Below, one piece after another: positions 38,246-55,604 of a stretch of 64,000 nucleotides of DNA (position 1 is the stretch's first letter; every line of letters starts with the position of its first letter). The position numbers and the translations under genes were made by a program. Origin of the DNA: Candidatus Omnitrophota bacterium (GTDB lineage Bacteria; Omnitrophota; Gorgyraeia; Zapsychrales; Zapsychraceae); NCBI GenBank assembly GCA_015233495.1, contig JADFXQ010000001.1, positions 2,790 to 66,789 of the forward strand, given 5' to 3'. The notes beneath the pieces are model-generated. The model saw only the letters and a program-made list of their open reading frames with translations, was not told where the DNA came from and ran no database searches.

Positions 38246-39382
<1,137 letters not shown>

Positions 39383-39471: not shown

Positions 39472-40797
39472 TCATGACAAAAAATCTTTGGCATTTTCCA
39501 AGCTCAAGGCTTGCCATTGAATTTTATAACGGGGATAATCGGCGGTGAGTCGTTGGGCTTTACGTTTTAGTTCTTCGAGATTGATCTTGCGTTTGTTGAT
39601 TTTTACTTCCGCGATCAGCATTTCTTGTTTAAGATCGTTGACCGCCACGATATCGATTTCATTTTCATTGCCCTTTTCCCAATAAGAACCAATGTTATTA
39701 AACTTTTTGGATTCCGCGCATAGATCGCGATAAAATTGTTCCAAGACTTTTCCGGAGTAAACCGCGTAATCCCGCTTGATGATCTCCTTAATGTATTCAA
39801 AATTTTCCGATTCCACCGCCGAACGGTGGCGATAAATAAACCGGAACCAAAAATTTAAAAAATGATCGTTGATTTTGTATTTCTGCGACCGGGAATTGGG
39901 TTTGGCGTTGATGGGTTTATATTTGGCAATGATCGCGTAATCGTTTTCCAAACGGTCCAAGTAACCTCCCGCGTTCCCGCCCAGCAGAGACTCAATCTCC
40001 GATCGTCCGATCTTTCCTACGGAAATCAATTCCAAAATCGAAAAATAAGTGCCATATTCCTTGCCAAATTCCTCGATCAAAAGATTCCTTCCTTCACTCA
40101 AAAACGGCGAATTCGGGGCAATCATAAAATCAAGAATCTGATCCAATGAAAACGCCTTATTCCCGACCAACAGGTCAATATACTTGGGGCTTCCGCCGGT
40201 AAACAAATAAAAATCAAACAAGGCTTTCGTATCCTTGATTTTATGATCTTTAAGGATGTCTCCGATCGTCGCGATCGTGAACGGCTTGATCATAAAAATC
40301 CGATCAGCCCGATTGAACAGCGGCTCTTTGGAATGTTGAAATATCTTGTGTATCAAGGAATAGACGGACCCGACCACAATGACATTCAGCCGGGATTTTC
40401 GCTTATGCAGGTCCCACAATTTCTGAATGTCCGAATAGACCGCGGGATTTATATGATAAAATTCCTGAAACTCGTCCATGATCACCGTGAGCGGCTCGGT
40501 TTTGGCTGCCTGCAATAAAAGCAAAAAGATATCTTTGAAGGTGTGAATTTCGCCCACAAAAGGCAAATCGGGAAGCATCCGCTTGATCTCGGCAAGAAAC
40601 TCGGCGCACAACAAGGCCTCGGATTTTTTCGCCGTAAAAAAATAAAGGTGCCGCGTGTCTTTAACAAATTCCAAAGACAACAGCGTTTTTCCGACGCGTC
40701 GGCGTCCCGTCAAAACCGCCAAACGCCCCTCATCCGGAGATTGGGAAAAAAGCCGCTTTAAATCTTTTAATTCCTGCCGGCGATCATAGAATTTCAT
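39472..40797 (-). CDS. AAA-family ATPase of the 'archaeal ATPase'/DUF234 type
   Basis: Walker A GRRRVGKT; C-terminal DUF234-like region. Confidence 0.6.
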   Translation of the reverse strand: MKFYDRRQELKDLKRLFSQSPDEGRLAVLTGRRRVGKTLLSLEFVKDTRHLYFFTAKKSEALLCAEFLAEIKRMLPDLPFVGEIHTFKDIFLLLLQAAKTEPLTVIMDEFQEFYHINPAVYSDIQKLWDLHKRKSRLNVIVVGSVYSLIHKIFQHSKEPLFNRADRIFMIKPFTIATIGDILKDHKIKDTKALFDFYLFTGGSPKYIDLLVGNKAFSLDQILDFMIAPNSPFLSEGRNLLIEEFGKEYGTYFSILELISVGKIGRSEIESLLGGNAGGYLDRLENDYAIIAKYKPINAKPNSRSQKYKINDHFLNFWFRFIYRHRSAVESENFEYIKEIIKRDYAVYSGKVLEQFYRDLCAESKKFNNIGSYWEKGNENEIDIVAVNDLKQEMLIAEVKINKRKINLEELKRKAQRLTADYPRYKIQWQALSLENAKDFLS

Positions 40798-43536: not shown

Positions 43537-43666
43537 AGCCCGCTCTCCTGTTGAAATTGCTGGTTAATTTGACCGCCGCTCGAAAAGAGCATCGGCAATG
43601 TAACTGGTTACATGGCAAATATGCCATATGATCCGAGGTTTGTCAAGGCAACCAGGCAAACTTTTT

Positions 43667-44701
43667 TTAAATATTTTGGGAAAAGACGGATTTCCGCTCT
43701 ACGAACTGAACCGGAAGGATCGTTTTACAATGGAAGGATTCCAACAAAACGCGCGACTCCAGATGAGTTATGAGCGACCGGACTGCTTCTTGCGCCAAAT
43801 GATAAACCGGCATCCTAACGGTCGTTAACGCGGGCCGCAATCCGGCAGACCGCCAATCATCATCAAAGCCGACTACGGATATTTTTTGCGGGCAAAGGAT
43901 CTTTTTTTCCTTCAAGCGATTCATCACCATAATAGCCATATTATCATTACAACAAAATATAGCAGTTATCCGCGGCCGGACGCTTAATAATTGATCCAAC
44001 GCGCCGGCAGTGATCTTTTCATTATCAAAATCGCCGGTTTGAATCAAATCTTTTCCTAAACGAAAGCCTTTTTTTAATAATCCGCCGCGAAACCCCTCCA
44101 GGCGTTCGCCGGAATCGCGCGACCAGTCCGGACCGGCCAGACAGGCCACGCAATGATGGCCTTTTTCTAATAAATGCTCGGCGACCATTTGCCCTCCGGC
44201 CAGATTATCGGCGCAAACAAACCGCGCCTTGATCCCGGCTTCGTAATCATTGATAATCACGCAAGGAATCTTCATCTGATTAATAACTTCCCGGTTGGCG
44301 AAAAAACGAAACCACTGGGTGGAAATCAAACCATCCACCCCTTCCCCGGCATAAAAATCAGAATTGGCCCATTTTTCCTTTTCCTGCTTTAATAGAATCA
44401 ATTTGAATTGATATGCGGTCCTTAGCAGATAATTGGAAACCCCGGCCAGGATATGTGCATAGTAAGAACTATAAAAAATATTCTCCACATAAGGAAAAAC
44501 GATCCCGATAGTTTTCGTTGAGGTCTTCCGCAGATTTTTTGCCGCGAAATGCGGCGTGTATCCCAGCTCTTGAATCAGGGTGTCAATCCTTTGCCGGGTT
44601 GCGCCCGCGACCCGATGCCGGGTATCCGGATTGATCACCCGGGAAATCGTCGCTACCGAGACGTGGGCTTGTTTCGCTAATTGCCGAATGTTCAGTTTCA
44701 T
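43667..44701 (-). CDS. LacI-family transcriptional regulator
   Basis: N-terminal HTH MKLNIRQLAKQAHVSVATISRV; periplasmic-binding-fold effector domain. Confidence 0.8.
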   Translation of the reverse strand: MKLNIRQLAKQAHVSVATISRVINPDTRHRVAGATRQRIDTLIQELGYTPHFAAKNLRKTSTKTIGIVFPYVENIFYSSYYAHILAGVSNYLLRTAYQFKLILLKQEKEKWANSDFYAGEGVDGLISTQWFRFFANREVINQMKIPCVIINDYEAGIKARFVCADNLAGGQMVAEHLLEKGHHCVACLAGPDWSRDSGERLEGFRGGLLKKGFRLGKDLIQTGDFDNEKITAGALDQLLSVRPRITAIFCCNDNMAIMVMNRLKEKKILCPQKISVVGFDDDWRSAGLRPALTTVRMPVYHLAQEAVRSLITHLESRVLLESFHCKTILPVQFVERKSVFSQNI

Positions 44702-44799
44702 AATATCGTCCGGATTTGAATGTAACTAATTACTTAAAATATACCTGATTCCGCAACAAACGTCAATATATTGGGCAAATAAATAGTGACGGGAAAATT

Positions 44800-44975
44800 A
44801 TTGCTGGATCAGAAGCAGAAAACTAATCAGCCAAACTAATATTTTCGATCTTGAGCCGATCCAGGATCTGCGTAAAGTTAAATAAGTCCTCATAATATAA
44901 GTATAAAATATAAATCGACGGAAAATAAGGGCGGGACCGGGGGGTTGGGAAAGCGTTTTCTTTATGGCAGCACTA
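44800..44975 (-). pseudogene. duplicate of the giant-gene promoter plus first 31 codons (MRTYLTLRRSWIGSRSKILVWLISFLLLIQQ*), upstream of lacI
   Basis: About 85-90% DNA identity to 54167-54320. Confidence 0.6.
44949..44960. promoter_or_regulatory. LacI-type operator-like half-palindrome GAAAGCGTTTTC (AANCGNTT core)
   Basis: Sequence motif; a counterpart, GAAAAAACGCTTTC, is present at 54304-54317. Confidence 0.3.
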
Positions 44976-45063: not shown

Positions 45064-45234
45064 ATGAATTCCAAAACAACCCAAGCGCTCAAACATTTGC
45101 ATAAAGCGCGGGAACTGGCGAAAAACTTAGATAATCCGTTCAAAGGTCTCACCAAAGAAGGAATCATTAACCAATTACGCGCTTCCCGGGAAAAACTCTG
45201 GTTGGAAAAGTATGCGGTTAGTTCTCGACACTAA
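45064..45234 (+). CDS. putative antitoxin (VapB-like)
   Basis: Small basic/helical protein with a TAGGAG Shine-Dalgarno, overlapping the downstream PIN gene. Confidence 0.45.
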   Translation: MNSKTTQALKHLHKARELAKNLDNPFKGLTKEGIINQLRASREKLWLEKYAVSSRH

Positions 45235-45619
45235 TGTCTTCATCTTCGCGTTCGGCGAAGCCGAAAATGTATCTTGCGTGAGACTGATTGAAACTTTGAC
45301 AGTCCTCAAGGCATCCATTCATATTCCCCGCACAATTATCCGCGAAGTCCAAAATAGCCTGCGCCCTATATTGTTCAAAGAATTCATTCTCTTTCTGAAT
45401 AAAGCGGCGCATATCGAAGAAGATCACGTTGTCTCTTTTGAGCTCGGCATGAAATACGAAGCTATGGGACTAAAACCCGCCGATGCTTTTATCGGCTCAT
45501 TTACGGAATGGGTTGGCGCGGAAATTCTCGTGTCGGAAAACCGCCATTTTCTTTCCCGGCAATCCAATTTGCCGTTTAAAGTCTTAACGGCTGAAAAATG
45601 CCTCAAATTTTTTAAATAA
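45212..45619 (+). CDS. vapC: PIN-domain toxin (VapC family)
   Basis: LVLDTNVFIFAF N-terminal acidic motif and further conserved Asp residues. Confidence 0.7.
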   Translation: MRLVLDTNVFIFAFGEAENVSCVRLIETLTVLKASIHIPRTIIREVQNSLRPILFKEFILFLNKAAHIEEDHVVSFELGMKYEAMGLKPADAFIGSFTEWVGAEILVSENRHFLSRQSNLPFKVLTAEKCLKFFK

Positions 45620-45688: not shown

Positions 45689-48600
45689 TTATTCCGAATG
45701 CAGCATCACCAGCATCTCCCGCATCTCAGGATCAGTGGGGGATTGTTCGTCTTCTTCAAGGCGCAGGATGTCCGCGATACAGCCCAAGACCGCCGGGCGT
45801 TCTTTTTTCAACCGGCCGTTTTGATATGACGCGGCCACATAATTTGCAATCCGCCGGATCGCGGGGATGCCCCCTTCCGCCAACATGGCCTGGATGGCAG
45901 CCCACTCGTCTCGAGAATTAAAATCCGCGGGCAGCTTAGCCGCCATTTTTCGCCACCCGTATAGAGAATTGGTTCCTTTCTCAAAGGGGGACAACTCCCG
46001 CAAGTCAACGCCGCCGGGATTCTCCGCGGATTCCGCCGGGGCCGGCGAACTTTGGCGCCGGGTTGCGCCTAATTGCGTTGTTACCGGCGAACCGGCCGCG
46101 TCAGCCCGCGCCGGGTCTATTCCCGAATCTTCACCCTCCAGAACAAACCAGTTGCATGCAACCCATTTCATCATTTGAGCGAACGGGCCGACCGGTTGGT
46201 GGGTAAAACCGCTTTTGGAATCCGTTGACACAAAACCCCGGCGCAACTGCTCCCGGACATCCAGGTTCGTCCTGACCGACTCTTCCAATAAATGCGCTAA
46301 TTCATGAATAATAACATCCGTAGCTTGACAAATCACGCCCGGACCAGCAACCCCAATTTGTCCCGCCAAAGCACGGTTCAGAAACATTGTCGGCTTTTCC
46401 TGGCCTTTGGGGCCATAATACCCGAACGCGCCCGCGAACCGCAGTGACTCATCAGGTAAATCACTCAACAACACAACCTGCTCTATGCCGAAATGCCTCG
46501 CCCCGGATAAAGCCAAATCCCGCAATTCCTTTTCCCGATCAGTATAGGCGCTGGTATTGATCATAAATTTTTCAGGATGAGAAATTTGTTCAATACCGGT
46601 TGTCACATCAATTGACTTGCTGACCATCTCATCAAAATCCGCTATATCTTCGGCCTGCGGTACGGCTTCCAAAATATATCCGGCTTGCTCTGCCGCGCGT
46701 TGCAGCGCTTTGGATGCTTTTCCCAAAAATGACGGCCGCTGCTTTTCCCGTTCTATTTGCAACTTCATACGCCGTCCAAATAAACTGATTGTTTTCCCGG
46801 GCCTATCCGGATTCGGCACATTTAACATTAAAATCAATTTAACAAAGTTCGGAACCACAAGGTCTTTTTCCCCATACTGCGCCGGCAGAGATTCTAATTC
46901 CTCAGAGCTAATCAAGGAAAATTGACCGGCATTGATCTTGTTCGCCAACGCGCTGATGGCCCGATCGTGTTGATCAATGGCTAACGAATAATGTTCTCTC
47001 GGCTCTCTTTCCCATTCGACAGGAAAACCCTCAAAAGTAAATTGACCCTGCTCTGCCGTGGCTGGCATCATTGTCCGCAAAGCCAAAGCCTTATAAAATT
47101 CGATTGCCACATATCTCTGAACTATGGATTTATAATGTTCGTCAAAATGCGCGAACTTGTCGCGATTGCCGGTCAGCGGCAACGGGACCTGCACGATCAA
47201 CCCCAGTTGTTGAATATGCTTGCGTAAGGCCGGCGGGACGAGCGCGAAATACTGGGCTTCATCCAACTCGCATACCCGGCGGCCAAATTTGTCTACGACC
47301 TGCGACGGCATATCCCTAGCGCTAATGATTTTAAATTTGCCGTCAAACGTATGGGTTTGCGACGCGATAAGAAAATCCCAAGCCTGGGGAAATTCTTTCT
47401 CCAATGTCCGCCGGATAGCTTGCTCCGCTTGGTCCCAACCCTCCCGCAGGGTGATCTCATTGTCGCCAACCCGATACGCCCACCCGCGCTCCACCATGAT
47501 CCCCGCAAACCTGGACCACTCCCAACTGCGGGGCGCCCACCCGGCCCACCAACGGCGCGGTCGAGGCAATTGCGTCTCAAATTCCTGCCGGGTGATCGGC
47601 TTGCCTCCGGCAAGTATGGCCTTAAAATCGGTTTCACTTAAAACCTGATGATCCACAGTCAGCAGTTCATTGTGAGTCTCGCCGTCGATACCGCGCCGGA
47701 AATATATCCCAAATCCGCCGCTGGTTCGCGGCCCATCCGCAGTGGAAGAAAGTCCGGAAAATATCTTATACGCGCGCTCGGACAGCATCGCGTCAAATTC
47801 CGGGATCGTGTCTTTCGCTTTTTTGATCCGCCGAATCAAAACCCCATCCTGCACATTGGGGTCGCTAATCTTCCGGATCCGGGTGAGCTTCACGTGAAGC
47901 GGGTTGCCAAACGCGTCTTTGGAAACTTGGATCACAAACATATAACCCGTCCCTTGCCGGCAGGTAATGATTTCCACGCGGTCCACCCCGGCCAAAAAAG
48001 TATATTTCCCTTTCCCAAAAAAACCGGCAGAATGTTCTTGCTCATCCGCTTCTTTAGTCGACACCTTGATCAACAACGCTGCCGCGTAAGCCGCGCCGGG
48101 TCCGTCGTCCTGGAAAGCCTCCACATATTCTTCTTCGCCGTTATTGTCCTGCAAATAATGGTCAATGACCAAGGTTTTCGCGCCCGCGTCCTGGGCGTTG
48201 GCCGGACCTTCGCGAGCGGCCGCGTCAGCTTCTCCCTGTACCTTGACATCGAACAGCACATCCTTTTCAGATTGGGGATCGGTTTCCGGCAAAGACACCG
48301 CAGGGTCCTGAATCGCGGCTATCAAATCGTCCATCGCAATAACCGGCTGGCCGTTCTTGGGCCGGCGTCGTTCCAAATCGTTCAATCGGGAAAGGTCAAT
48401 TCCCTGCGGATAATGCCCAGTGCCGTCCGCCAACAAAACGTCTTCGCCATTCGGCAAAACCGGTTGCCCGCGATGCGGCAATTCATCGATCTCTTGAGTC
48501 AAAAAAGCCACGACCGGACGCGCGTATCCCATGTCATGGCCGGCCAGCGGATCATCCGCGTAGGCCAACAAGAGCCGGATGCCAACAGTCTGGAAACTCG

Positions 48601-51600
48601 AACATAATTTTTTCAGAAAATTGACTTTGCTTTGCTCTTCCGCTGTGAGGATCCGGCTGATTTGCTTGGTCATGATCGGGATATGATGAACCGGATCATT
48701 GCCGGCAAACCGGGCCAAGAACGCCACCGCATCTAAAAGCCCAGACGTGTTGATTCCCGTAAACGTAGTAAGCGCTCTGATCAATTGAATCACCGCTTCC
48801 AGAGCCCGGACTTGTTCAACAGTGTCCATTTGCCAGCCGCCGCCTAAAGCGAGTACCGCTTCCAAAGATAAATCCGTCGCGGCATCCTCGTCCAGAGCCA
48901 TTTGAAATAAACTGCCAAACAATTGCGTATAAAAAGCTCGCCGCGTTTTATGGACATTGGGTAAACGTTCGGCAACTGTTTCCAGATAACCCGGCAAACC
49001 GGACATGATCCGGGCCATCCGCCGCTCAAATAACTCAAACGGCAGTCCGGTCAAATCTAATTCCTGCCCTTGTGCCGCCGCGGCAAAACGCCGCCGGATT
49101 TCCGCGGTCTGCTTTGCAAACAACCGGTCAATCCCCGCTTCGATCCGTCCGTTGATTTCATCTTGATAATCCGCGCACTCCTCGGGAACCAAGGCCGCGA
49201 ACCCCAAATAAGCCGCTCTGGCCTGAGCAATCCAGGCTTCACCCTGACTCATAATTTTTTCCTGCCACAAAGCATCTTCGCGGCGCTCCGGCTCTACTGG
49301 AGCAGCTGCCGGCAGCTCAATTGGGACCTCAGACACCGCTCTTATTCTCTCCGATAAGTTCGCATAAAACGCTCTTATAATTTCCTCGTAAATAGCCGTC
49401 GGCGGCGCCAACGCCGAAGTTCGAACCCGGGTGCGCCGCGGGTCCAAATAAATACTCTGGCCCGTGCTCGCGTTGGTGAAAACAAAATACTCCCCGTTCA
49501 CATGCACATAAGCAAAAGCGTCGGGTACACCCTGGGGAATTTCCCGAACGTTTCCTTGCGCGTCGAATATTGCGAGTCTACCCTGTAAAATAAATTCGCG
49601 GCTCTTTGTTATCGTAATAGAAAGCGATGATAAGTTTACGCTATGGAATTTTTGGGTTCCCTCATCCCAAACCACCAACATCGAATCATCTTTCCGGTCA
49701 ACCCACCAACTCTTGCCGCCTTTTAAAGGTAAGATCTCCGTGGTTATACCGCAATCAAATTGTTCTTCCTCTACCTCGCTTTTTAAATTTCGGAATAATG
49801 TGTCACCCTGCACATTGCCAATATTCCGCCAAACAGCCACATTACCGAACAATTCCACAGTTGTACGGTCCTGTTTCGTCGGCGGATTGGAACTATAATG
49901 TATCCTTGTCCCCATAATCATGAATAAGCCGAACCTATCCGCAATTTGGTATATGTTGCTCCCCGAAATATCATACCCTTGCCAGAATTCCGGGCTGGCT
50001 TGGCCGGACGGAAACTCCGGAATTGATTGTTCATTATACAATTGCCTTAGGACAAGTGTGTTTTTATTCCTTAGAAACGTCAACATTTCATTTTTGTCGC
50101 GGCCTTCGAAAACTACATAAACAAATCCCGCATCATTACTGATAAAAATTTTTTCTTTGAAATCTGGCATCCTGGTTGTAACCGGTTCTCCTGACTTTAA
50201 ATTGATCAAACCTAATTTATTCCCTATTTTATAAATCGCAATCATGCCGCTGGCGTCGATCTCAATATGCTCCGCGTTCCAAATCAGCGGTTTACCCGAT
50301 TCCAAGGAAAAAAGGCCATAGGTATTATTCCTTTGCTTGGCAATGACCACATCCGCTTTGTCGTGAACAACGTATTCACTGATCTCCCTGAATGACGTGA
50401 ACCCAGTCAGCTGGGGAAGCGCGGCGTCATGATCGCAATATTTGATCTCATTTTTAAACCGCTGGACGGAAAACCGCCCGGAAGCGGACAGTTGAATGTC
50501 CCAGGCGCGCTTCCGCGCAGACCTGGTCGTAGGTAAATTTCGAATATCTATGATCTCTTTCCCGCCCGCCTGATCAACATATTCCACAATCAAAAACCGA
50601 TCCGTATGCGACACCATATAGCAATCGTGCACCGTCCAGAGCAGTTCACCCGCGGGATTATAGATATCAACCTTTCGAGAAAATATTCTCATGAAATAGT
50701 TGTCTTCCATTCTAATGAATCGTGCTATTCCTATCTCAATATGGTCTTCTGCTGGAGCGTCTGACGGTTTACTGAACAAAAATATAGAATCCGCTGGCGC
50801 GGCCTGTGACCCTTCAGCAAACGGCGCCACAACCGTTTGGGAAGGTCCCGGAACAAAAGCAGTTGCCGGAGGGCGGCTTAAATCTTCCCGAAACCTCTGC
50901 TCTGCGGCGGCGCCTATGCTGCCTGCGTTGGAAACAGCCGGCCAAGCCGGTTTCGCCGGCGCGGCCGTCGGGGCGTCGATAACATTCGCTTCCGCGAATC
51001 CCGGCCGCATTTCATATCCCGTGACAAGGGCCTCCCCCGTCATCTTATTGATCTGCTCCCACATATGCGCCAATTCTTTGCGTTCCTGCGCATTCAGACC
51101 CGTTGATTTTTTCGCCAACTCAAACAACCTTTGCCCAAAAGAATTGCGCCCCTTGCCTGAGGGCACAGCCACAAAATCTTTGGCACGGACCAGCGCCAAA
51201 TCCCGGTCAACTTGTTCGCTGGATACCGCCTTTCCGTTTACCGCAGCCAAACTTTCCGCGGTGAACGGCAAAACCACCACTGACAACTCGCCTTTCAACA
51301 GCTTATCCGGGATCACCTGGCCGCCCAATTGACTCGCGATAAACGTGGCAGTGCTGTCAAACAAATCTTCATGCAGCCAAATCACTTTGTCTTCTTTTCC
51401 CTTCGGAATTTGCACCTTGCGAAAATCCGTATAATACGGCAAAAGCAGATATCCCTGCGCTTGATATTCTTTTAACCAAGGCTTAAGCGCTTTCTTGATC
51501 TCCATCTTTATTTGATCGATGACATTAGCATGCTTGCCGTTTTCACCAATCAATCCATCCAAACCGCAAACCAGCATATTGATGTACCGGATCTTATCCG

Positions 51601-54250
51601 GTGTCAGGATATCCGGATTCGTTAAAATGCCCTGAACTGCGCGATTGACCGCAAACTGAAAATTCCCTTCTAACCTCGCTTCTTCCGGAAGCTTGACCTC
51701 GTCCCGAGCTTCCGGCACATCCAAAAATCCCGCCAAATCCACCAATAGGCCTCCCTCCGCCACCGCCTGCGGCAATACCCGGTCCGGGATTTGCACAGCT
51801 TTAATCACTTCATACCTGCGGCCGAATGAAACCTCTCTTTTGGAAGACAAGGGGTCAAAAACGACACTGATCCGCTTGGCTTCTTGGTCCCGTTTTGCCC
51901 CGTCCAATTCATCCGCTTGTTTTGAACCCTTCACAAACATCCGTGACAAAACACCCGCGTCCATGCCTTTTCCATTATCCACAATCACAATTTCCCCGTC
52001 GTGAGACCAGATATGCACCCGCCGGGTTGCCGCGTCCGCCGCCCTTTGGGCCTTTCCGGTGTGGGGAACAAGCACAACCTTGCGGTCAAAATCGTTCAAT
52101 TTTTCGCCCTGCACATAAATCGTGACATCCGGCACATAAGCAAACCGGTTGGCCAACTCGGTGATCATTGTGTTTTGAAACGCCGCGTCCGCGTCTTTTT
52201 TTCCCGGCGCCCAATCCTGACTTTTAACGCGCACCACTGTGCCCTGAGTGATTTCATTTTCTCCCAGCGCCGCCTGTTGAAACACAGACCGGTCAATGGC
52301 TTTAATCTGAATATAATTTTGCCCGGACCGGCTTTTTAAAATCGTGAGTTGATAATAATCTCCGTCCCGGGCGCGCGTCAGCACTTCAATGCGGTCCTGT
52401 CCGCTGGGGCCCAACCATTCCAAGATCTGCTTCACGCCTTTTCCAAATTGTCCGATATCGCACCCCAAGGCATCCAAACTGTTGGACACCGCTTCAAAAA
52501 TAGCTTGGGTTTTAGGTTTTTGGCTTTGTTTATCCGTGAGTTTTTTCAGATAAGGATTTTTGTAAGTGTCTTGATTTATGCTGTCAATGATCGCTTTATT
52601 GTATTTGCCGCCGGATAATTCTTTTAAAAGGTCTTGGATGGCTGCGGCAAACGCTTGTTCCCGTCTCGCTTTATTCATAGCATCCAAGTCATAAGCTTGC
52701 GGAGCCAAACCCGCCAAAGTCAATACCTGCTTAAGGTGATCCGCTTGCATACCCAAACTCAATTGTTGCTGAGCGTGAAAAAAATGCTCTAAATCAATAC
52801 CAGAAAAACCCAATTCCGGGTCTTCATAAGCAAAGGCTTCCGAACTGATTTGGACTTCAGCCGGTTTCGGTCCGGAGAACGACTCTTCATCTTTATTGAC
52901 GTTTATTGTTTTTCGGAATAACGACTTTAGTTTATCGAGCCAGCTCGCTGCCGGGGATGAAGACGACTTCATCTCCGTTACCTCCGAGGATACGGCCGAA
53001 ACCGCCGGGATCTGTTCTGCGTCCAGCCCGCCCCTGATTCCAATCGGAATGACGGACGGAGAAATCGGCAAAACATTGGCCGGGTTCGGAATATAAACCG
53101 CGGAAGAAACTGTCAAATCAAACCCGCCGCTCACATAGGTCCGCACGGTTTGGCCGTCGGGAGTGTCAACTGATTTTTCGCTGTTATATTCGCCGTTTTG
53201 AAAAGATTTTTTGTAGGCTGAGAAATAAGTGTCTTTGGACCAGGTTGTCTTAGATTCAAGACCCGTGAGGTTTTGTTGATCGATCAGGTTGGGATAAGTT
53301 CCGGATTGGTTTTTATATCTTTTTTTGAACCATTGCGCCAAGATCAGCGAGTAATAAACTTGCCGAAATTGCGCATACCGTTTGGCTGTGTTGACTTCCT
53401 TGGTCAGCCGCGGAATTATGAGTTCGCGAATCTGCTGGGACGCGTATTCATTGATGGCTTTTAATTTTGGGTCAGTAAAATTGTAGTCCGGGTCGTTTTT
53501 GAGATGGTCCTGCTGTAGCATGACTTTGAGCGTGGCTTTGTAAATGTAGGCGCCCCCCTCCCCTCCCCATGCTTCGCGGGGGAGGGGTTTTGCATACTGC
53601 TTTTCTTTTCGGATTCGTTCGCTCTCTATCTTTTCCTTTCTATTTTCACTAATGATAATTTCCCCCGGCACGATCCACGGCCGGGTCATAGTCGGGATAG
53701 CGATTTCCTGATTGCCGTAGATTTCACCGGCTTTTTTATAGACCCGGGTCCAATATTCCCGGCCTTCCGGGGTTTCCTGGGACACGTATTTGGCCATGTC
53801 CTTCTTCAACTGCAAATCCGCGGCCAGCAAAATCCGCCCGATATCCGTGCGCGCTAATTGCGGGTCAATGCTATGATCTTTGTCTTCCGGCCGCAGGTTC
53901 ACCCAGAACATACTGTTCGGCAAAGTCAGGCCGATAAAAAAATAATTCAGCAGGTCTTTGGCAGTGGATTCGATTTCCGGCGACTTGACATTTTTCTGAT
54001 CGCCTTTATCCAACAGCAAATCAAACTTATTAAGGGGAATGTTGTAAGCTAAATACCGAAAATGCAAAGGCCGAAACTTGTCCGCGACCAGCATATTCCC
54101 CAACCCGGACATCGCGCCGGCCACATCCAAAGACACTGCCAACTGCGCCAATCCGGTCTGCTGGACCAGAAGCAGAAAACTAAGCAGCCAAACTAATATT
54201 TTTGACCGAAAGCAGATCCAGGATCTGCTCAAGGTAAAATTAGTCCTCAT
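45689..54250 (-). CDS. giant secreted multidomain protein (2853 aa) with GHKL-ATPase-like motifs and a C-terminal HExxH zincin-like motif
   Basis: Signal peptide; N-domain paralogous to 40942-43536; EAVSNSLDA...DNGKGMD and DAGAKT..DDGPG..GFFGKGKYT Bergerat-fold motifs; IIHELAHLLEE. Confidence 0.8.
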   Translation of the reverse strand: MRTNFTLSRSWICFRSKILVWLLSFLLLVQQTGLAQLAVSLDVAGAMSGLGNMLVADKFRPLHFRYLAYNIPLNKFDLLLDKGDQKNVKSPEIESTAKDLLNYFFIGLTLPNSMFWVNLRPEDKDHSIDPQLARTDIGRILLAADLQLKKDMAKYVSQETPEGREYWTRVYKKAGEIYGNQEIAIPTMTRPWIVPGEIIISENRKEKIESERIRKEKQYAKPLPREAWGGEGGAYIYKATLKVMLQQDHLKNDPDYNFTDPKLKAINEYASQQIRELIIPRLTKEVNTAKRYAQFRQVYYSLILAQWFKKRYKNQSGTYPNLIDQQNLTGLESKTTWSKDTYFSAYKKSFQNGEYNSEKSVDTPDGQTVRTYVSGGFDLTVSSAVYIPNPANVLPISPSVIPIGIRGGLDAEQIPAVSAVSSEVTEMKSSSSPAASWLDKLKSLFRKTINVNKDEESFSGPKPAEVQISSEAFAYEDPELGFSGIDLEHFFHAQQQLSLGMQADHLKQVLTLAGLAPQAYDLDAMNKARREQAFAAAIQDLLKELSGGKYNKAIIDSINQDTYKNPYLKKLTDKQSQKPKTQAIFEAVSNSLDALGCDIGQFGKGVKQILEWLGPSGQDRIEVLTRARDGDYYQLTILKSRSGQNYIQIKAIDRSVFQQAALGENEITQGTVVRVKSQDWAPGKKDADAAFQNTMITELANRFAYVPDVTIYVQGEKLNDFDRKVVLVPHTGKAQRAADAATRRVHIWSHDGEIVIVDNGKGMDAGVLSRMFVKGSKQADELDGAKRDQEAKRISVVFDPLSSKREVSFGRRYEVIKAVQIPDRVLPQAVAEGGLLVDLAGFLDVPEARDEVKLPEEARLEGNFQFAVNRAVQGILTNPDILTPDKIRYINMLVCGLDGLIGENGKHANVIDQIKMEIKKALKPWLKEYQAQGYLLLPYYTDFRKVQIPKGKEDKVIWLHEDLFDSTATFIASQLGGQVIPDKLLKGELSVVVLPFTAESLAAVNGKAVSSEQVDRDLALVRAKDFVAVPSGKGRNSFGQRLFELAKKSTGLNAQERKELAHMWEQINKMTGEALVTGYEMRPGFAEANVIDAPTAAPAKPAWPAVSNAGSIGAAAEQRFREDLSRPPATAFVPGPSQTVVAPFAEGSQAAPADSIFLFSKPSDAPAEDHIEIGIARFIRMEDNYFMRIFSRKVDIYNPAGELLWTVHDCYMVSHTDRFLIVEYVDQAGGKEIIDIRNLPTTRSARKRAWDIQLSASGRFSVQRFKNEIKYCDHDAALPQLTGFTSFREISEYVVHDKADVVIAKQRNNTYGLFSLESGKPLIWNAEHIEIDASGMIAIYKIGNKLGLINLKSGEPVTTRMPDFKEKIFISNDAGFVYVVFEGRDKNEMLTFLRNKNTLVLRQLYNEQSIPEFPSGQASPEFWQGYDISGSNIYQIADRFGLFMIMGTRIHYSSNPPTKQDRTTVELFGNVAVWRNIGNVQGDTLFRNLKSEVEEEQFDCGITTEILPLKGGKSWWVDRKDDSMLVVWDEGTQKFHSVNLSSLSITITKSREFILQGRLAIFDAQGNVREIPQGVPDAFAYVHVNGEYFVFTNASTGQSIYLDPRRTRVRTSALAPPTAIYEEIIRAFYANLSERIRAVSEVPIELPAAAPVEPERREDALWQEKIMSQGEAWIAQARAAYLGFAALVPEECADYQDEINGRIEAGIDRLFAKQTAEIRRRFAAAAQGQELDLTGLPFELFERRMARIMSGLPGYLETVAERLPNVHKTRRAFYTQLFGSLFQMALDEDAATDLSLEAVLALGGGWQMDTVEQVRALEAVIQLIRALTTFTGINTSGLLDAVAFLARFAGNDPVHHIPIMTKQISRILTAEEQSKVNFLKKLCSSFQTVGIRLLLAYADDPLAGHDMGYARPVVAFLTQEIDELPHRGQPVLPNGEDVLLADGTGHYPQGIDLSRLNDLERRRPKNGQPVIAMDDLIAAIQDPAVSLPETDPQSEKDVLFDVKVQGEADAAAREGPANAQDAGAKTLVIDHYLQDNNGEEEYVEAFQDDGPGAAYAAALLIKVSTKEADEQEHSAGFFGKGKYTFLAGVDRVEIITCRQGTGYMFVIQVSKDAFGNPLHVKLTRIRKISDPNVQDGVLIRRIKKAKDTIPEFDAMLSERAYKIFSGLSSTADGPRTSGGFGIYFRRGIDGETHNELLTVDHQVLSETDFKAILAGGKPITRQEFETQLPRPRRWWAGWAPRSWEWSRFAGIMVERGWAYRVGDNEITLREGWDQAEQAIRRTLEKEFPQAWDFLIASQTHTFDGKFKIISARDMPSQVVDKFGRRVCELDEAQYFALVPPALRKHIQQLGLIVQVPLPLTGNRDKFAHFDEHYKSIVQRYVAIEFYKALALRTMMPATAEQGQFTFEGFPVEWEREPREHYSLAIDQHDRAISALANKINAGQFSLISSEELESLPAQYGEKDLVVPNFVKLILMLNVPNPDRPGKTISLFGRRMKLQIEREKQRPSFLGKASKALQRAAEQAGYILEAVPQAEDIADFDEMVSKSIDVTTGIEQISHPEKFMINTSAYTDREKELRDLALSGARHFGIEQVVLLSDLPDESLRFAGAFGYYGPKGQEKPTMFLNRALAGQIGVAGPGVICQATDVIIHELAHLLEESVRTNLDVREQLRRGFVSTDSKSGFTHQPVGPFAQMMKWVACNWFVLEGEDSGIDPARADAAGSPVTTQLGATRRQSSPAPAESAENPGGVDLRELSPFEKGTNSLYGWRKMAAKLPADFNSRDEWAAIQAMLAEGGIPAIRRIANYVAASYQNGRLKKERPAVLGCIADILRLEEDEQSPTDPEMREMLVMLHSE
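53546..53594. repeat. related palindromic element (GTAGGCGCCCCCCTCCCCTCCCC-N9-GGGGGAGGGG) inserted in-frame in the giant gene (encodes PLPREAWGGEGGAY)
   Basis: Direct reading of the sequence; the paralog at 40942-43536 lacks this segment. Confidence 0.6.
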
Positions 54251-54303
54251 ACTATAAGTATAGAATATAAATCGACGGAAAATAAGGGCGGAACCGGGTT
54301 TTC

Positions 54304-54317
54304 GAAAAAACGCTTTC
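54304..54317. promoter_or_regulatory. LacI-type operator-like site GAAAAAACGCTTTC about 55 bp upstream of the giant gene
   Basis: AANCGNTT core; duplicated at 44949. Confidence 0.3.
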
Positions 54318-54389
54318 TTGCTCGCGACTAAATTTCATATAACTATAATTTAGTCTTGACTAAAATAACCTTAGGTATAATATAGTCGT

Positions 54390-55604
54390 ATGTCAGATCG
54401 GCCTATGTATACTCATTTATGGCAAGAACTCTCCGCTACCAAGCCGATGGTTTTTTTAAGCGGACCGCGTCAGGCGGGAAAAACCACTCTGGCCCGATCC
54501 ATCTCATCTCTGTATGCCAACAACCTTTATACCAACTGGGATATTCAAACCGACCGGAAAACAATTCTTCAGAATCCATATTTTTATGAAAATCTGGAAC
54601 AAAAAGACGCGTCCCCCGCTTTAATCATCTTCGATGAAATTCACAAATACCGCGGCTGGAAAAATTATCTAAAAGGGGTTTACGATAAAAGCCACTCGAC
54701 CAACCGCTTCTTGGTTCTCGGCAGCGGACGGTTGGATATTTTCCAAAAAGGTGGCGATTCCTTGGCCGGACGTTATTACCTGGCTCATGTTTTTCCACTG
54801 ACCTTGGCGGAATTAGGAAACCGCCGTAAAACATTCCCTGCCTTCTGGCAAAATCCGCTGGATTTGGCGCCGGCGGGAAATTTGGAAAATGTTTGGAACA
54901 ACCTCAAAAATCTGACCGGATTTCCCGAGCCATTTTTCGCCGCTGATGTGAAAAATTATCAACGCTGGTCTAATACTTACAGCCATCAATTGATCCGGGA
55001 GGATATCCGCGATCTGACAAAAATACGAGATTTGGACAATGTGGAGGCCTTGTATTATCTCCTTCCTTCCAAAATCAGCAGCCCGCTTTCGATCGCCAGC
55101 CTCAGCCGGGACTTGCAAGTATCATTTAACACAGTTAAAGATTGGCTTGCCGTTTTTGAAAGATTATATCTCACCTTCCGTATTACTCCCTGGACCAAAA
55201 AACTATCCCGGGTTGTCACCAAAGAACAAAAATTATACCTGATGGATTATGGCCAAATTCCCGATCCGGCCGCGCGGTACGAAAATATGATTGCCGTCGA
55301 ACTTTTACGCGCCGTATCCCATTGGACCAACCTGGGTTTCGGCCGGTTCTCGCTCCACTTTTTACGCAGTAAGGAAGGCCAGGAAGCTGATTTCCTCATC
55401 GCTGATCGAAACACGCCGCGGCTCATCATCGAGGCTAAACTTTCCGATCCCGCGATCTCCGCCCCACTCTTGAAATTTCAAAATATGCTCAACCTCCCCG
55501 CGGTCCAACTCGTCGATAAAAAAGGTGTTTTTCGGATCAGCGCCAACGGCGCCAACCGGATCTTGACCGCTTCCGCGGCCGATTGGTTATCGCAATTGCC
55601 ATAA
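54390..55604 (+). CDS. AAA-family ATPase (AAA_14 + DUF4143-like architecture)
   Basis: Walker A GPRQAGKTT; Walker B IIFDEIH; long C-terminal domain. Confidence 0.65.
   Translation: MSDRPMYTHLWQELSATKPMVFLSGPRQAGKTTLARSISSLYANNLYTNWDIQTDRKTILQNPYFYENLEQKDASPALIIFDEIHKYRGWKNYLKGVYDKSHSTNRFLVLGSGRLDIFQKGGDSLAGRYYLAHVFPLTLAELGNRRKTFPAFWQNPLDLAPAGNLENVWNNLKNLTGFPEPFFAADVKNYQRWSNTYSHQLIREDIRDLTKIRDLDNVEALYYLLPSKISSPLSIASLSRDLQVSFNTVKDWLAVFERLYLTFRITPWTKKLSRVVTKEQKLYLMDYGQIPDPAARYENMIAVELLRAVSHWTNLGFGRFSLHFLRSKEGQEADFLIADRNTPRLIIEAKLSDPAISAPLLKFQNMLNLPAVQLVDKKGVFRISANGANRILTASAADWLSQLP

What the first reader, a model, noticed from the sequence alone, without database searches (positions are those of the whole stretch)
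44800..44975. Promoter and first 31 codons of the giant gene are duplicated upstream of lacI; both copies carry LacI-type operator-like sites
Positions 44803-44975 are about 85-90% identical to 54167-54320. This duplicates the giant gene's upstream region and the start of its signal peptide, which is truncated by a stop after 31 codons. The copy sits directly upstream of, and co-oriented with, the LacI-family regulator gene. Both copies contain a near-palindromic AANCGNTT-core site (44949-44960 and 54304-54317). This suggests that the LacI protein autoregulates and also controls the giant gene. Alternatively, the short copy may be a scar of cassette replacement at the giant-gene locus.
Basis: partly seen in the sequence, partly recalled or inferred. 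Interest (0 to 1): 0.65.

Follow-up and report, generated by a model that had tools for sequence, protein, structure and literature searches.

The report
Orphan promoter-plus-leader copy upstream of lacI
A 161-base piece holding the complete promoter and first 31 codons of a 2853-residue secreted-protein gene is repeated just upstream of a LacI regulator gene in an Omnitrophota genome, and its small palindrome is a conserved control site of that whole gene family, not the neighbouring LacI's usual operator.

Summary
The repeat is real: 44802-44962 and 54159-54319 align without gaps at 137/161 (85%). It covers 68 nt of upstream DNA and 31 codons; copy A then hits TAA 97 nt before lacI.

In 82 loci encoding relatives of the giant protein's N-terminal domain, the upstream layout is fixed: GAAAGCGCTTTC, 19-20 nt, TTGAAA, 17 nt, CATACT. 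In 728 kb, 41 of 42 perfect GAAANCGNTTTC matches lie upstream of a family gene.

The neighbouring LacI probably works elsewhere. In 14 orthologous lacI loci the operator is TGTAANCGNTTACA, placed just after the -10 of lacI and of the downstream gene. The window has these at 43599-43612 and, degenerate, at 44721-44734, after lacI's own TTGACG-17-TATATT promoter. None of the 82 family loci has a lacI within 6 kb.

Best reading: copy A is an orphan 5' fragment of a paralogue or duplicate. It keeps an intact family-type promoter that may read into lacI. LacI binding to the palindrome is possible but unproven. This is a new member of known kinds, of moderate interest.

The parts
54159..54319 (-). 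Repeat copy B: promoter region plus codons 1-31 of the giant gene
   Evidence: Ungapped 161-nt alignment to 44802-44962, 137/161 identical
44802..44962 (-). Repeat copy A: the same promoter region plus 31 codons, orphaned upstream of lacI
   Evidence: homology ends exactly at codon 31
54306..54317 (-). Family palindrome in copy B, GAAAGCGTTTTT (1 mismatch, at the otherwise invariant last C)
   Evidence: family matrix
44949..44960 (-). Family palindrome in copy A, GAAAACGCTTTC (perfect GAAANCGNTTTC; the only perfect match in the window)
54257..54285 (-). Copy B core promoter: -35 TTATTT (54285-54280), 17-nt spacer, -10 TATACT (54262-54257); 20 nt after the palindrome, 6 nt before the ATG
   Evidence: matches the family layout TTGAAA-17-CATACT. 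The generic sigma-70 scan did not call it
44900..44928 (-). Copy A core promoter: -35 TTATTT (44928-44923), 17-nt spacer, -10 TATACT (44905-44900); differs from copy B by one spacer base
44798..44893 (-). Truncated ORF of copy A: 31 codons (n- and h-regions of a family-type signal peptide) plus TAA
45689..54250 (-). Giant gene, 2853 aa: signal peptide, about 360-aa Omnitrophota-specific N-domain, long middle part, family-conserved C-terminal about 130 aa
   Evidence: no Pfam family above cut-off
45064..45619 (+). Toxin-antitoxin-like pair (56-aa ORF 45064-45234, PIN-domain ORF 45212-45619) between the giant gene's 3' end and copy A, divergent from copy A
44738..44766 (-). lacI's own sigma-70-type promoter, TTGACG-17-TATATT, downstream of copy A
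44721..44734 (-). Degenerate LacI operator AGTAATTAGTTACA, 3 nt after lacI's -10 and starting 33 nt before the ATG; same position as the operators of orthologous lacI genes
   Evidence: It scores only 1.8 bits on the orthologue PWM because the centre is TA, not CG
43667..44701 (-). lacI (344 aa; MBF0531506.1)
   Evidence: Pfam LacI + Peripla_BP_3
43599..43646 (-). Promoter TTGACA-17-CATATT (43646-43618) followed by palindrome TGTAACCAGTTACA (43612-43599) in front of the 864-aa gene
   Evidence: top PWM score in the window; same layout in L003, L004, L081, L082, L083, L085
40942..43536 (-). 864-aa secreted protein whose N-domain is a distant paralogue (about 30% identity) of the giant's N-domain; conserved partner of lacI
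54211..54229 (.). Perfect 9+1+9 palindrome AGCAGATCCAGGATCTGCT inside leader codons 8-14 (copy A equivalent 44855-44871, 1 mismatch); role unknown
   Evidence: 0.18 matches expected at 3 or fewer mismatches

Best explanation
The repeat is a lineage-specific duplicate of the 5' end of a gene from a large Omnitrophota family of secreted proteins. That family has a stereotyped promoter: a 12-bp palindrome GAAAGCGCTTTC, 19-20 nt, a -35 (TTGAAA), 17 nt, and a -10 (CATACT). Copy B drives the giant gene. Copy A is an orphan: homology stops at codon 31, a stop codon follows at once, and no gene body remains.

Copy A most likely arose by tandem or paralogue duplication followed by loss of the body, or by recombination between paralogous 5' ends. 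This history is inferred, not shown.

The palindrome would be centred near -61.5 if transcription starts 7 nt after the -10. That spacing is fixed across the family, as for a class-I-type dimeric factor. It is the family's trans-acting regulator site, not an operator specific to the adjacent LacI. The adjacent LacI has its own sigma-70 promoter. It most likely represses itself and the downstream 864-aa paralogue through TGTAA-N-CG-N-TTACA-type operators placed just after the -10 boxes (44721-44734, 43599-43612).

Copy A keeps every promoter element intact, and no terminator separates it from lacI. It therefore probably still fires and adds a second, family-co-regulated promoter upstream of lacI. 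This last step is inference.
For: - Repeat extent and identity.
- Family layout: 55 of 76 distinct upstream regions have the palindrome at 1 mismatch or fewer. Of 42 perfect matches in 728 kb, 41 lie 40-240 nt upstream of a family gene. The palindrome-to-TTG spacing is 19-20 nt in 41 of 49. Anchored alignment.
- Both window copies fit exactly: palindrome, 20 nt, TTATTT, 17 nt, TATACT.
- The block from CCCGGT to ATGAGGACT differs at 3 of 57 positions, against 21 of 104 elsewhere in the repeat (post hoc Fisher p = 0.011).
- Copy A has the perfect palindrome. Copy B has a mismatch at a position invariant in 54 of 54 family sites.
- The leader is a family-typical signal peptide.
- lacI has its own promoter, and no minus-strand terminator lies between copy A and lacI.
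- Orthologue operators TGTAANCGNTTACA sit 20-63 nt upstream of lacI and in the promoter of the downstream p864-like gene.
- On the PWM the window's top site is 43599, while the repeat's sites score 4.1 and -2.5 bits.
- No lacI is found in the 82 family loci, and their conserved neighbours are housekeeping genes, not regulators.
Against: - There is no transcription or binding data.
- The -35 in the window (TTATTT) is weak, and the generic promoter scan did not call either copy.
- The ATG sits only 6 nt after the -10, unlike the 27-80-nt 5'UTRs of the family. Either the mRNA is leaderless or the true start lies further in (TTG at codon 7 in copy B only).
- Copy A has lost part of the A-tract that follows the palindrome in the family.
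- The conservation test within the repeat is post hoc and could reflect gene conversion.
- No close relative of this genome was available (best LacI orthologue 59%, best N-domain relative 57%), so the rearrangement history cannot be reconstructed.
- Many of the 80 metagenome loci come from related populations, so the counts are not independent events.
Confidence: 0.55

Rival explanations
1. One reading: the adjacent LacI binds the GAAANCGNTTTC palindrome in both copies. It would thereby autoregulate through copy A and control the giant gene through copy B. By extension, the LacI orthogroup would regulate the whole N-domain family in trans.
For: - The palindrome core equals the CcpA high-affinity cre core, and CcpA accepts both TGTAA and TGAAA half-sites (PMC3463425).
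- Orthologue operators occasionally use the same half-site: L009 TGAAAACGTTTTCA and TGTAAACGTTTTCA, L083 TGTAAGCGCTTTCA. The recognition helix VS[VI]AT[IV]SRA is unchanged in these.
- Copy A's site ranks 16th of 64,000 positions on the orthologue PWM.
- Below the LacI orthogroup, homologues drop to 35% identity or less and come mostly from other phyla. Omnitrophota may therefore have few other LacI-family proteins.
- Both LacI-linked (p864-type) and palindrome-linked genes belong to one superfamily.
Against: - Copy B's site ranks 151st at -2.5 bits, while true orthologue sites score 15-23 bits.
- Family palindromes never have T at the position where LacI operators mostly have T: 0 of 54, although G and C variants occur there. 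They also lack the outer T...A.
- The site position (about -61.5, upstream of the -35) differs from the operator position used by this orthogroup, which overlaps the start site.
- 0 of 82 family loci have a lacI within 6 kb.
- None of the other 14 lacI loci has a family-type promoter upstream of lacI, apart from L009's own operator.
Confidence: 0.25
2. Copy A is a dead scar: a neutral leftover of a deletion or recombination. It is no longer transcribed and has no effect on lacI.
For: - Homology ends at codon 31 with an immediate stop, and only 35 nt separate it from lacI's own promoter.
- lacI has a complete promoter and operator of its own, in the same layout as its orthologues.
- Orphan family promoters are otherwise not seen: 41 of 42 perfect palindromes precede real genes.
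- The copies have diverged by 15%, and copy A's A-tract after the palindrome has eroded.
Against: After 15% divergence, copy A still has a perfect palindrome, the exact 20-nt and 17-nt spacings, and -35/-10 boxes identical to copy B's. The differences avoid the core promoter. This pattern is suggestive only.
Confidence: 0.3
3. The two copies are attachment-site-like direct repeats flanking a mobile 9.2-kb cassette (giant gene plus toxin-antitoxin pair). The cassette would have been inserted by site-specific or Campbell-type recombination.
For: Direct repeats bracket the giant-gene body and a TA module, a gene type common on islands and cassettes.
Against: - There is no integrase, transposase or recombinase between or beside the repeats.
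- The repeats are 85%, not near 100%, identical, and they are a promoter plus coding sequence homologous to chromosomal family genes.
- GC content shows no island boundary.
- A Campbell event would leave copy A fused to a gene body, which is absent.
Confidence: 0.05
4. The conserved block is a cis-acting RNA leader (riboswitch or attenuator), not a promoter.
For: Other members of the same family do have a structured, terminator-ending leader. Copy B's leader RNA folds somewhat better than shuffles (z = -2.4 for 92 nt).
Against: - There is no Rfam match.
- The two copies fold differently, and copy A shows no excess stability (z = -0.6 and +0.2).
- The conserved block aligns with the -35/-10 of the family, upstream of their 5'UTRs.
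Confidence: 0.03

Closest known systems
CcpA cre / LacI-GalR-family palindromic operators (e.g. Bacillus subtilis high-affinity cre TGAAAGCGCTTTCA; PMC3463425)
   Same: A 12-nt core GAAAGCGCTTTC with a central CG and AA/TT at the same positions. Sites upstream of the -35 are known for CcpA-activated promoters (own knowledge: ackA, pta). A LacI-family gene is adjacent in the window.
   Different: - The outer T and A of the 14-mer are not conserved.
- The site sits at a fixed position, 19-20 nt before the -35, in one gene family of an uncultivated phylum.
- The cognate factor is unknown.
- The adjacent LacI's orthologues use a TGTAA-type operator at the transcription start.
Class I activator sites such as CRP at lac (centred -61.5; own knowledge)
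   Same: A dimer-sized palindrome at a fixed distance upstream of a moderately good -35, centred near -61.5 under the inferred start site.
   Different: The start site is inferred, not mapped. Whether the factor activates or represses is unknown, and the sequence is unrelated to the CRP site.
Truncated 5' gene fragments (orphan promoter and leader relics) left by partial duplication or deletion between paralogues
   Same: Homology covers the non-coding upstream region plus the first codons and stops abruptly. A stop codon follows immediately, and a full-length copy lies nearby in direct orientation.
   Different: After 15% divergence the relic still keeps a complete, family-consensus promoter. 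It also points into a regulator gene whose conserved target is a paralogue of the duplicated gene.
LacI-type autoregulated repressor with an adjacent target gene (lacI-operator-target layout)
   Same: lacI and the downstream 864-aa gene each have TTGAC[AG]-17-[TC]ATATT followed within 3-6 nt by a palindromic operator. This layout is conserved in 6 or more orthologous loci.
   Different: The target is a secreted protein of unknown fold and function with no Pfam match, not a sugar catabolic operon. The effector is unknown.

Membership tests
LacI/GalR-family (cre-like) operator | Palindrome with central CG and AA..TT arms (TGNAANCGNTTNCA) | tested here: met
   Copy A GAAAACGCTTTC matches GAAANCGNTTTC at 12/12 and copy B at 11/12. 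The family consensus is GAAAGCGCTTTC, the core of the CcpA cre consensus. The outer T/A of the 14-mer are not conserved.
LacI/GalR-family (cre-like) operator | Conserved at the same place in homologous loci | tested here: met
   55 of 76 upstream regions carry it. 41 of 42 perfect matches in 728 kb lie upstream of family genes. Spacing to the -35 is 19-20 nt in 41 of 49.
LacI/GalR-family (cre-like) operator | Bound by a LacI-family protein | not testable with these tools
   This needs EMSA, DAP-seq or ChIP. No regulator gene is a conserved neighbour of family genes.
Operator of the adjacent LacI orthogroup (TGTAANCGNTTACA) | Match to the motif shared by operators of orthologous lacI loci | tested here: not met
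   A PWM from 22 orthologue sites scores copy A at 4.1 bits (rank 16) and copy B at -2.5 bits (rank 151). Training sites score 15-23 bits and the window's 43599 site 13.3 bits.
Operator of the adjacent LacI orthogroup (TGTAANCGNTTACA) | Position just downstream of the -10 of lacI or of the gene after lacI | tested here: not met
   The repeat's palindrome lies 20 nt upstream of the -35. The orthogroup's sites lie 3-6 nt after the -10. The window has sites at those positions: 43599-43612 and 44721-44734.
Sigma-70-type promoter | -35 and -10 hexamers with 16-18-nt spacing, conserved among homologues | tested here: met
   The family has TTGAAA-17-CATACT and the window has TTATTT-17-TATACT. The generic consensus scan misses it because of the weak -35. 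The transcription start is not mapped.
Partial gene duplicate / 5' pseudogene fragment | Homology to the 5' flank plus the start of a full-length gene, abrupt end, premature stop, no remaining body | tested here: met
   161 nt at 85% identity, ending at codon 31 and followed by TAA, with 35 nt to the lacI promoter.
Mobile-element attachment repeats (attL/attR, cassette boundaries) | Recombinase gene associated; near-identical core; element found in other contexts | tested here: not met
   No recombinase lies among the ORFs between or beside the repeats. Identity is 85%. The 22-nt core is absent from metagenome contigs, and there is no composition break.
Known structured RNA leader (Rfam) | Covariance-model match or a shared stable fold | tested here: not met
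   No relevant Rfam match at E of 1 or less. The folds of the two copies differ and are not more stable than shuffles for copy A.

The most novel reading that the evidence does not exclude
The cre-like palindrome fixed at about -61.5 would define a phylum-wide regulon of Omnitrophota secreted N-domain proteins, run by a CcpA-like global factor, possibly the LacI orthogroup itself. In this genome the orphan promoter copy would have rewired lacI into that regulon. The regulon's signal would then also set the level of the repressor of the paralogous 864-aa protein, giving a switch between alternative secreted paralogues.
Probability: 0.15. Interest if true: 0.65.

Novelty: new member of a known kind. 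Interest (0 to 1): 0.42.

Why it matters
Omnitrophota are uncultivated, and nothing is known about how they control their large secreted proteins. The papers on Omnitrophota giant genes held in the library do not mention promoters or regulators.

This work gives three testable things:
- A precisely defined promoter layout with a conserved factor-binding palindrome for one abundant secreted-protein family.
- A separate, well-supported LacI operator (TGTAANCGNTTACA) with a conserved target gene of unknown function.
- One genome in which a stray copy of the first promoter sits in front of the regulator of the second system.

The duplication itself is an ordinary kind of genome scar. Its value is as a pointer to these two regulons and to a possible link between them.

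Tried and rejected
- Exact-protein lookup of LacI and of P0133 for the source contig: not on record. The rest of the HQL23 genome could therefore not be searched for further copies.
- A 22-nt core of the repeat searched in metagenome contigs: no match, so no close relative is available at DNA level.
- The generic promoter/terminator scan did not call a minus-strand promoter in either copy. The promoter was recognised only by comparison with the family.
- RNA-element idea: no Rfam hit and no shared fold; rejected.
- Island or cassette idea: no recombinase and no GC break; rejected.
- Search for a conserved regulator gene next to family genes: the neighbours are rsmI-like methylase, glmS, gyrA, EF-G, mgsA-type ATPase and cyclophilin genes, with no transcription factor.
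- dN/dS on 31 codons (7 replacements, about 5 synonymous codons, counted by eye): too little data and no outgroup, so not used.
- Operator-to-operator phasing for looping (227 nt between 44954 and 44727, not an integral number of turns): considered and dropped.

Full report
**1. Locus layout.**
The window comes from a Candidatus Omnitrophica MAG. LacI is MBF0531506.1, the 864-aa protein is MBF0531505.1 (HQL23_00230), and the contig is 187 kb.

In the gene orientation (minus strand), the order from high to low coordinates is:
- an AAA_14/DUF4143 gene, divergent on the plus strand (54390-55604);
- repeat copy B;
- the giant gene (54250-45689, 2853 aa);
- a convergent PIN toxin-antitoxin pair (45064-45619, plus strand);
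- repeat copy A;
- lacI (44701-43667);
- an 864-aa gene (43536-40942);
- a DUF234 ATPase gene and GAPDH.

**2. The observation.**
One ungapped direct repeat joins 44802-44962 to 54159-54319: 161 nt with 137 identities. Its 28-nt core occurs nowhere else in the window, even with three mismatches allowed.

It spans 68 nt upstream of the ATG plus codons 1-31. Copy A then reads TAA.

**3. What the giant gene's 5' end belongs to.**
Residues about 40-400 of the giant protein belong to a large family found almost only in Omnitrophota. There are 331 hits at E of 1e-5 or less, and the listed best 120 are 44-58% identical. C-terminal parts vary widely. The signal peptide is strikingly conserved (K-I-L-S-L-L-C-F-L-L-I-F-E-Q-S-G-F-A-Q), and the window's leader fits it.

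A family-conserved C-terminal domain of about 130 aa is also present in the giant protein. An AlphaFold model of the N-domain (pLDDT 77.5) has no match among solved structures, so its function is unknown.

The 864-aa protein downstream of lacI carries a distant paralogue of the same N-domain, about 30% identical. A third family member of the same genome (P0133, HQL23_04670) has a different leader.

**4. The promoter is real and family-wide.**
I fetched 80 metagenome loci plus two others that encode relatives of the N-domain and extracted the DNA before each start codon.
- 55 of 76 distinct upstream regions carry GAAANCGNTTTC with at most one mismatch.
- 48 of those lie within 140 nt of the ATG.
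- In all 728 kb there are 42 perfect matches, and 41 lie 40-240 nt upstream of a family gene.

Anchoring on the palindrome shows a fixed layout:
- WW-GAAAGCGCTTTC-YYAAAACCCC;
- 19-20 nt in total from the palindrome to TTGAAA or TTGTAA (41 of 49);
- a 17-nt spacer ending in TTACCTATATAG;
- CATACT;
- a 27-80-nt 5'UTR, often containing GGCTGATAAACC;
- the ATG.

Both window copies fit base for base: palindrome, 20 nt, TTATTT, 17 nt, TATACT. If transcription starts about 7 nt after the -10, the palindrome is centred near -61.5. That is the textbook class I activator position (own knowledge).

One difference from the family is that the window's ATG follows the -10 by only 6 nt. Either the mRNA is leaderless or the true start lies further in: TTG at codon 7, preceded by GAGGA, exists in copy B only. 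This point is inferred.

**5. State of the two copies.**
The 24 differences are unevenly spread:
- 9 lie in the first 34 nt (palindrome flank and spacer);
- 2 lie in the 35 nt from the -35 to the ATG;
- 13 lie in the 92 coding nt.

The block from CCCGGT to ATGAGGACT has 3 differences in 57, against 21 in 104 elsewhere (post hoc Fisher p = 0.011).

Copy A has the perfect palindrome. Copy B has T at the last position, which is C in 54 of 54 family sites. Copy A has lost part of the A-tract.

Copy A is therefore at least as well kept as the copy in front of the intact gene. This suggests it is still functional, or that recent gene conversion occurred, but it is not proof.

No terminator-like site lies between copy A and lacI, so any transcript from copy A would enter lacI.

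**6. Where the neighbouring LacI most likely acts.**
LacI has a clear orthogroup in Omnitrophota at 39-59% identity. In 14 orthologous loci, TGTAANCGNTTACA occurs at two places:
- 20-63 nt before the lacI ATG;
- 8-250 nt after the lacI stop (mostly 30-150 nt).

In six of these loci the downstream gene is a p864-type gene. Its promoter reads TTGACA-17-GCATATT followed after about 3 nt by ATGTAANCGNTTACAT, the same as in the window: TTGACA-17-CATATT, then TGTAACCAGTTACA at 43612-43599.

Upstream of lacI the orthologues have the same layout, with a -10 and then the operator. The window has TTGACG-17-TATATT followed after 3 nt by AGTAATTAGTTACA (44734-44721). This site has one good half-site and a TA centre.

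On a PWM built from 22 orthologue sites:
- 43599 is the best position in the whole window (13.3 bits);
- the repeat's sites score 4.1 bits (rank 16) and -2.5 bits (rank 151);
- 44721 scores 1.8 bits because of its centre.

LacI autoregulation and control of the 864-aa gene through these sites are well supported by position and conservation. The giant gene has no such site.

**7. Could this LacI still bind the family palindrome?**
For:
- The palindrome's core is that of the high-affinity CcpA cre, and CcpA accepts both TGTAA and TGAAA half-sites (PMC3463425).
- Three orthologue operators contain TGAAA/TTTCA half-sites with an unchanged recognition helix (L009, L083).
- Omnitrophota seem to have few other LacI-family proteins.

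Against:
- No T occurs at the discriminating position in any of 54 family sites, although G and C variants do occur.
- The sites occupy a different position class.
- No lacI lies within 6 kb of any of 82 family genes, and no other regulator is a conserved neighbour.
- No family-type promoter lies upstream of lacI in the other lacI loci.

I put this at about one in four.

**8. Origin of copy A.**
Orphan family promoters are otherwise absent from the sample, and the arrangement is not seen at other lacI loci. It is therefore a lineage-specific accident.

Two simple histories fit:
- a tandem duplication of the unit [promoter-giant-TA], followed by loss of the second body;
- a former paralogue upstream of lacI that was deleted from codon 32 onward.

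Tandem p864-type pairs exist in L004 and L083, so local duplication does occur in this superfamily.

A mobile-cassette origin is unlikely: there is no recombinase, identity is only 85%, and there is no composition break. An RNA-element reading is also rejected.

Without a close relative the history stays inferred. The best N-domain relative is 57% identical, and the core 22-mer is absent from the metagenome collection.

**9. Verdict.**
The promoter and a real, conserved, cre-like site are duplicated, but the evidence points to other operators for the neighbouring LacI.
- The duplication is an ordinary kind of relic. It is noteworthy mainly because it still carries an intact promoter aimed at a regulator gene, and because following it exposed two conserved cis-regulatory systems in an uncultivated phylum.

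Noticed in passing
L086, L088-L090, L102, L103, L113, L126, L141, L146, L152 (about 60-160 nt before the family gene's ATG); variant in L129, L131, L134, L135, L156: A second class of 5' region in the same gene family: a promoter followed by a structured leader of about 90 nt. It reads AATCCGG, a hairpin with a GGAGG loop, TTGCCACGGTAA, AAGCCGGATT, then a terminator hairpin and T-run. The 5' AATCCGG can pair with the CCGGATT that also forms the terminator's 5' arm, as in a riboswitch or attenuator. There is no Rfam match. RNAalifold shows a few compensatory changes in the first hairpin.
   Followed up: partly
Family loci, e.g. L101, L095, L098, L139, L144 (5'UTR, 20-50 nt before the ATG): A conserved 5'UTR motif, GGCTGATAAACC (variants GGCCGATGAGCC, GGCTGGCAACC), occurs in many family members. 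It is absent from the window's copies, where the ATG follows the -10 directly.
   Followed up: no
window 54211-54229 and 44855-44871: A perfect 9+1+9 palindrome, AGCAGATCCAGGATCTGCT, lies inside leader codons 8-14 of the giant gene and is kept with one mismatch in copy A. It contains two GATC and one CCWGG. Only 0.18 matches are expected at 3 mismatches or fewer. Its role is unknown.
   Followed up: partly
window 45064-45619 (+): A PIN-domain toxin (135 aa) overlaps a 56-aa upstream ORF with a good Shine-Dalgarno sequence and a TTGACA promoter. This toxin-antitoxin-like pair is wedged between the giant gene's 3' end and copy A. It has no homologue in the 82 family loci.
   Followed up: partly
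window 45689-54250 (-); L087:9331-14448; L147:7360-13008: The giant protein has a GHKL-like DNGKGMD box near aa 757, a weak HATPase_c_3 match at aa 2018-2110 and an HELAH motif near aa 2639. In L087 the N-domain is a separate 440-aa protein, followed by a 1705-aa Peptidase_M48 protein. L147 encodes a relative 38% identical over aa 455-1081.
   Followed up: no
L145:1844-5014, L136:36-3167 (neighbours of family genes): GlmS and GyrA genes next to family genes carry inteins (Intein_splicing plus LAGLIDADG_3). A syntenic block of rsmI-like methylase, glmS, gyrA and EF-G flanks many family members.
   Followed up: no
P0158, P0173, P0238: Some N-domain family proteins carry precomputed Pfam hits to glycolytic enzymes: PGK, GAPDH C-terminal domain and enolase N-terminal domain. 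In the window a GAPDH gene (38246-39376) lies two genes after the 864-aa paralogue. These could be true fusions, gene-call run-ons or linkage.
   Followed up: no
window 39472-40797 (-) and 54390-55604 (+): Two ATPase genes bracket the lacI / giant-gene region: DUF234/ATPase_2 and AAA_14/DUF4143.
   Followed up: no
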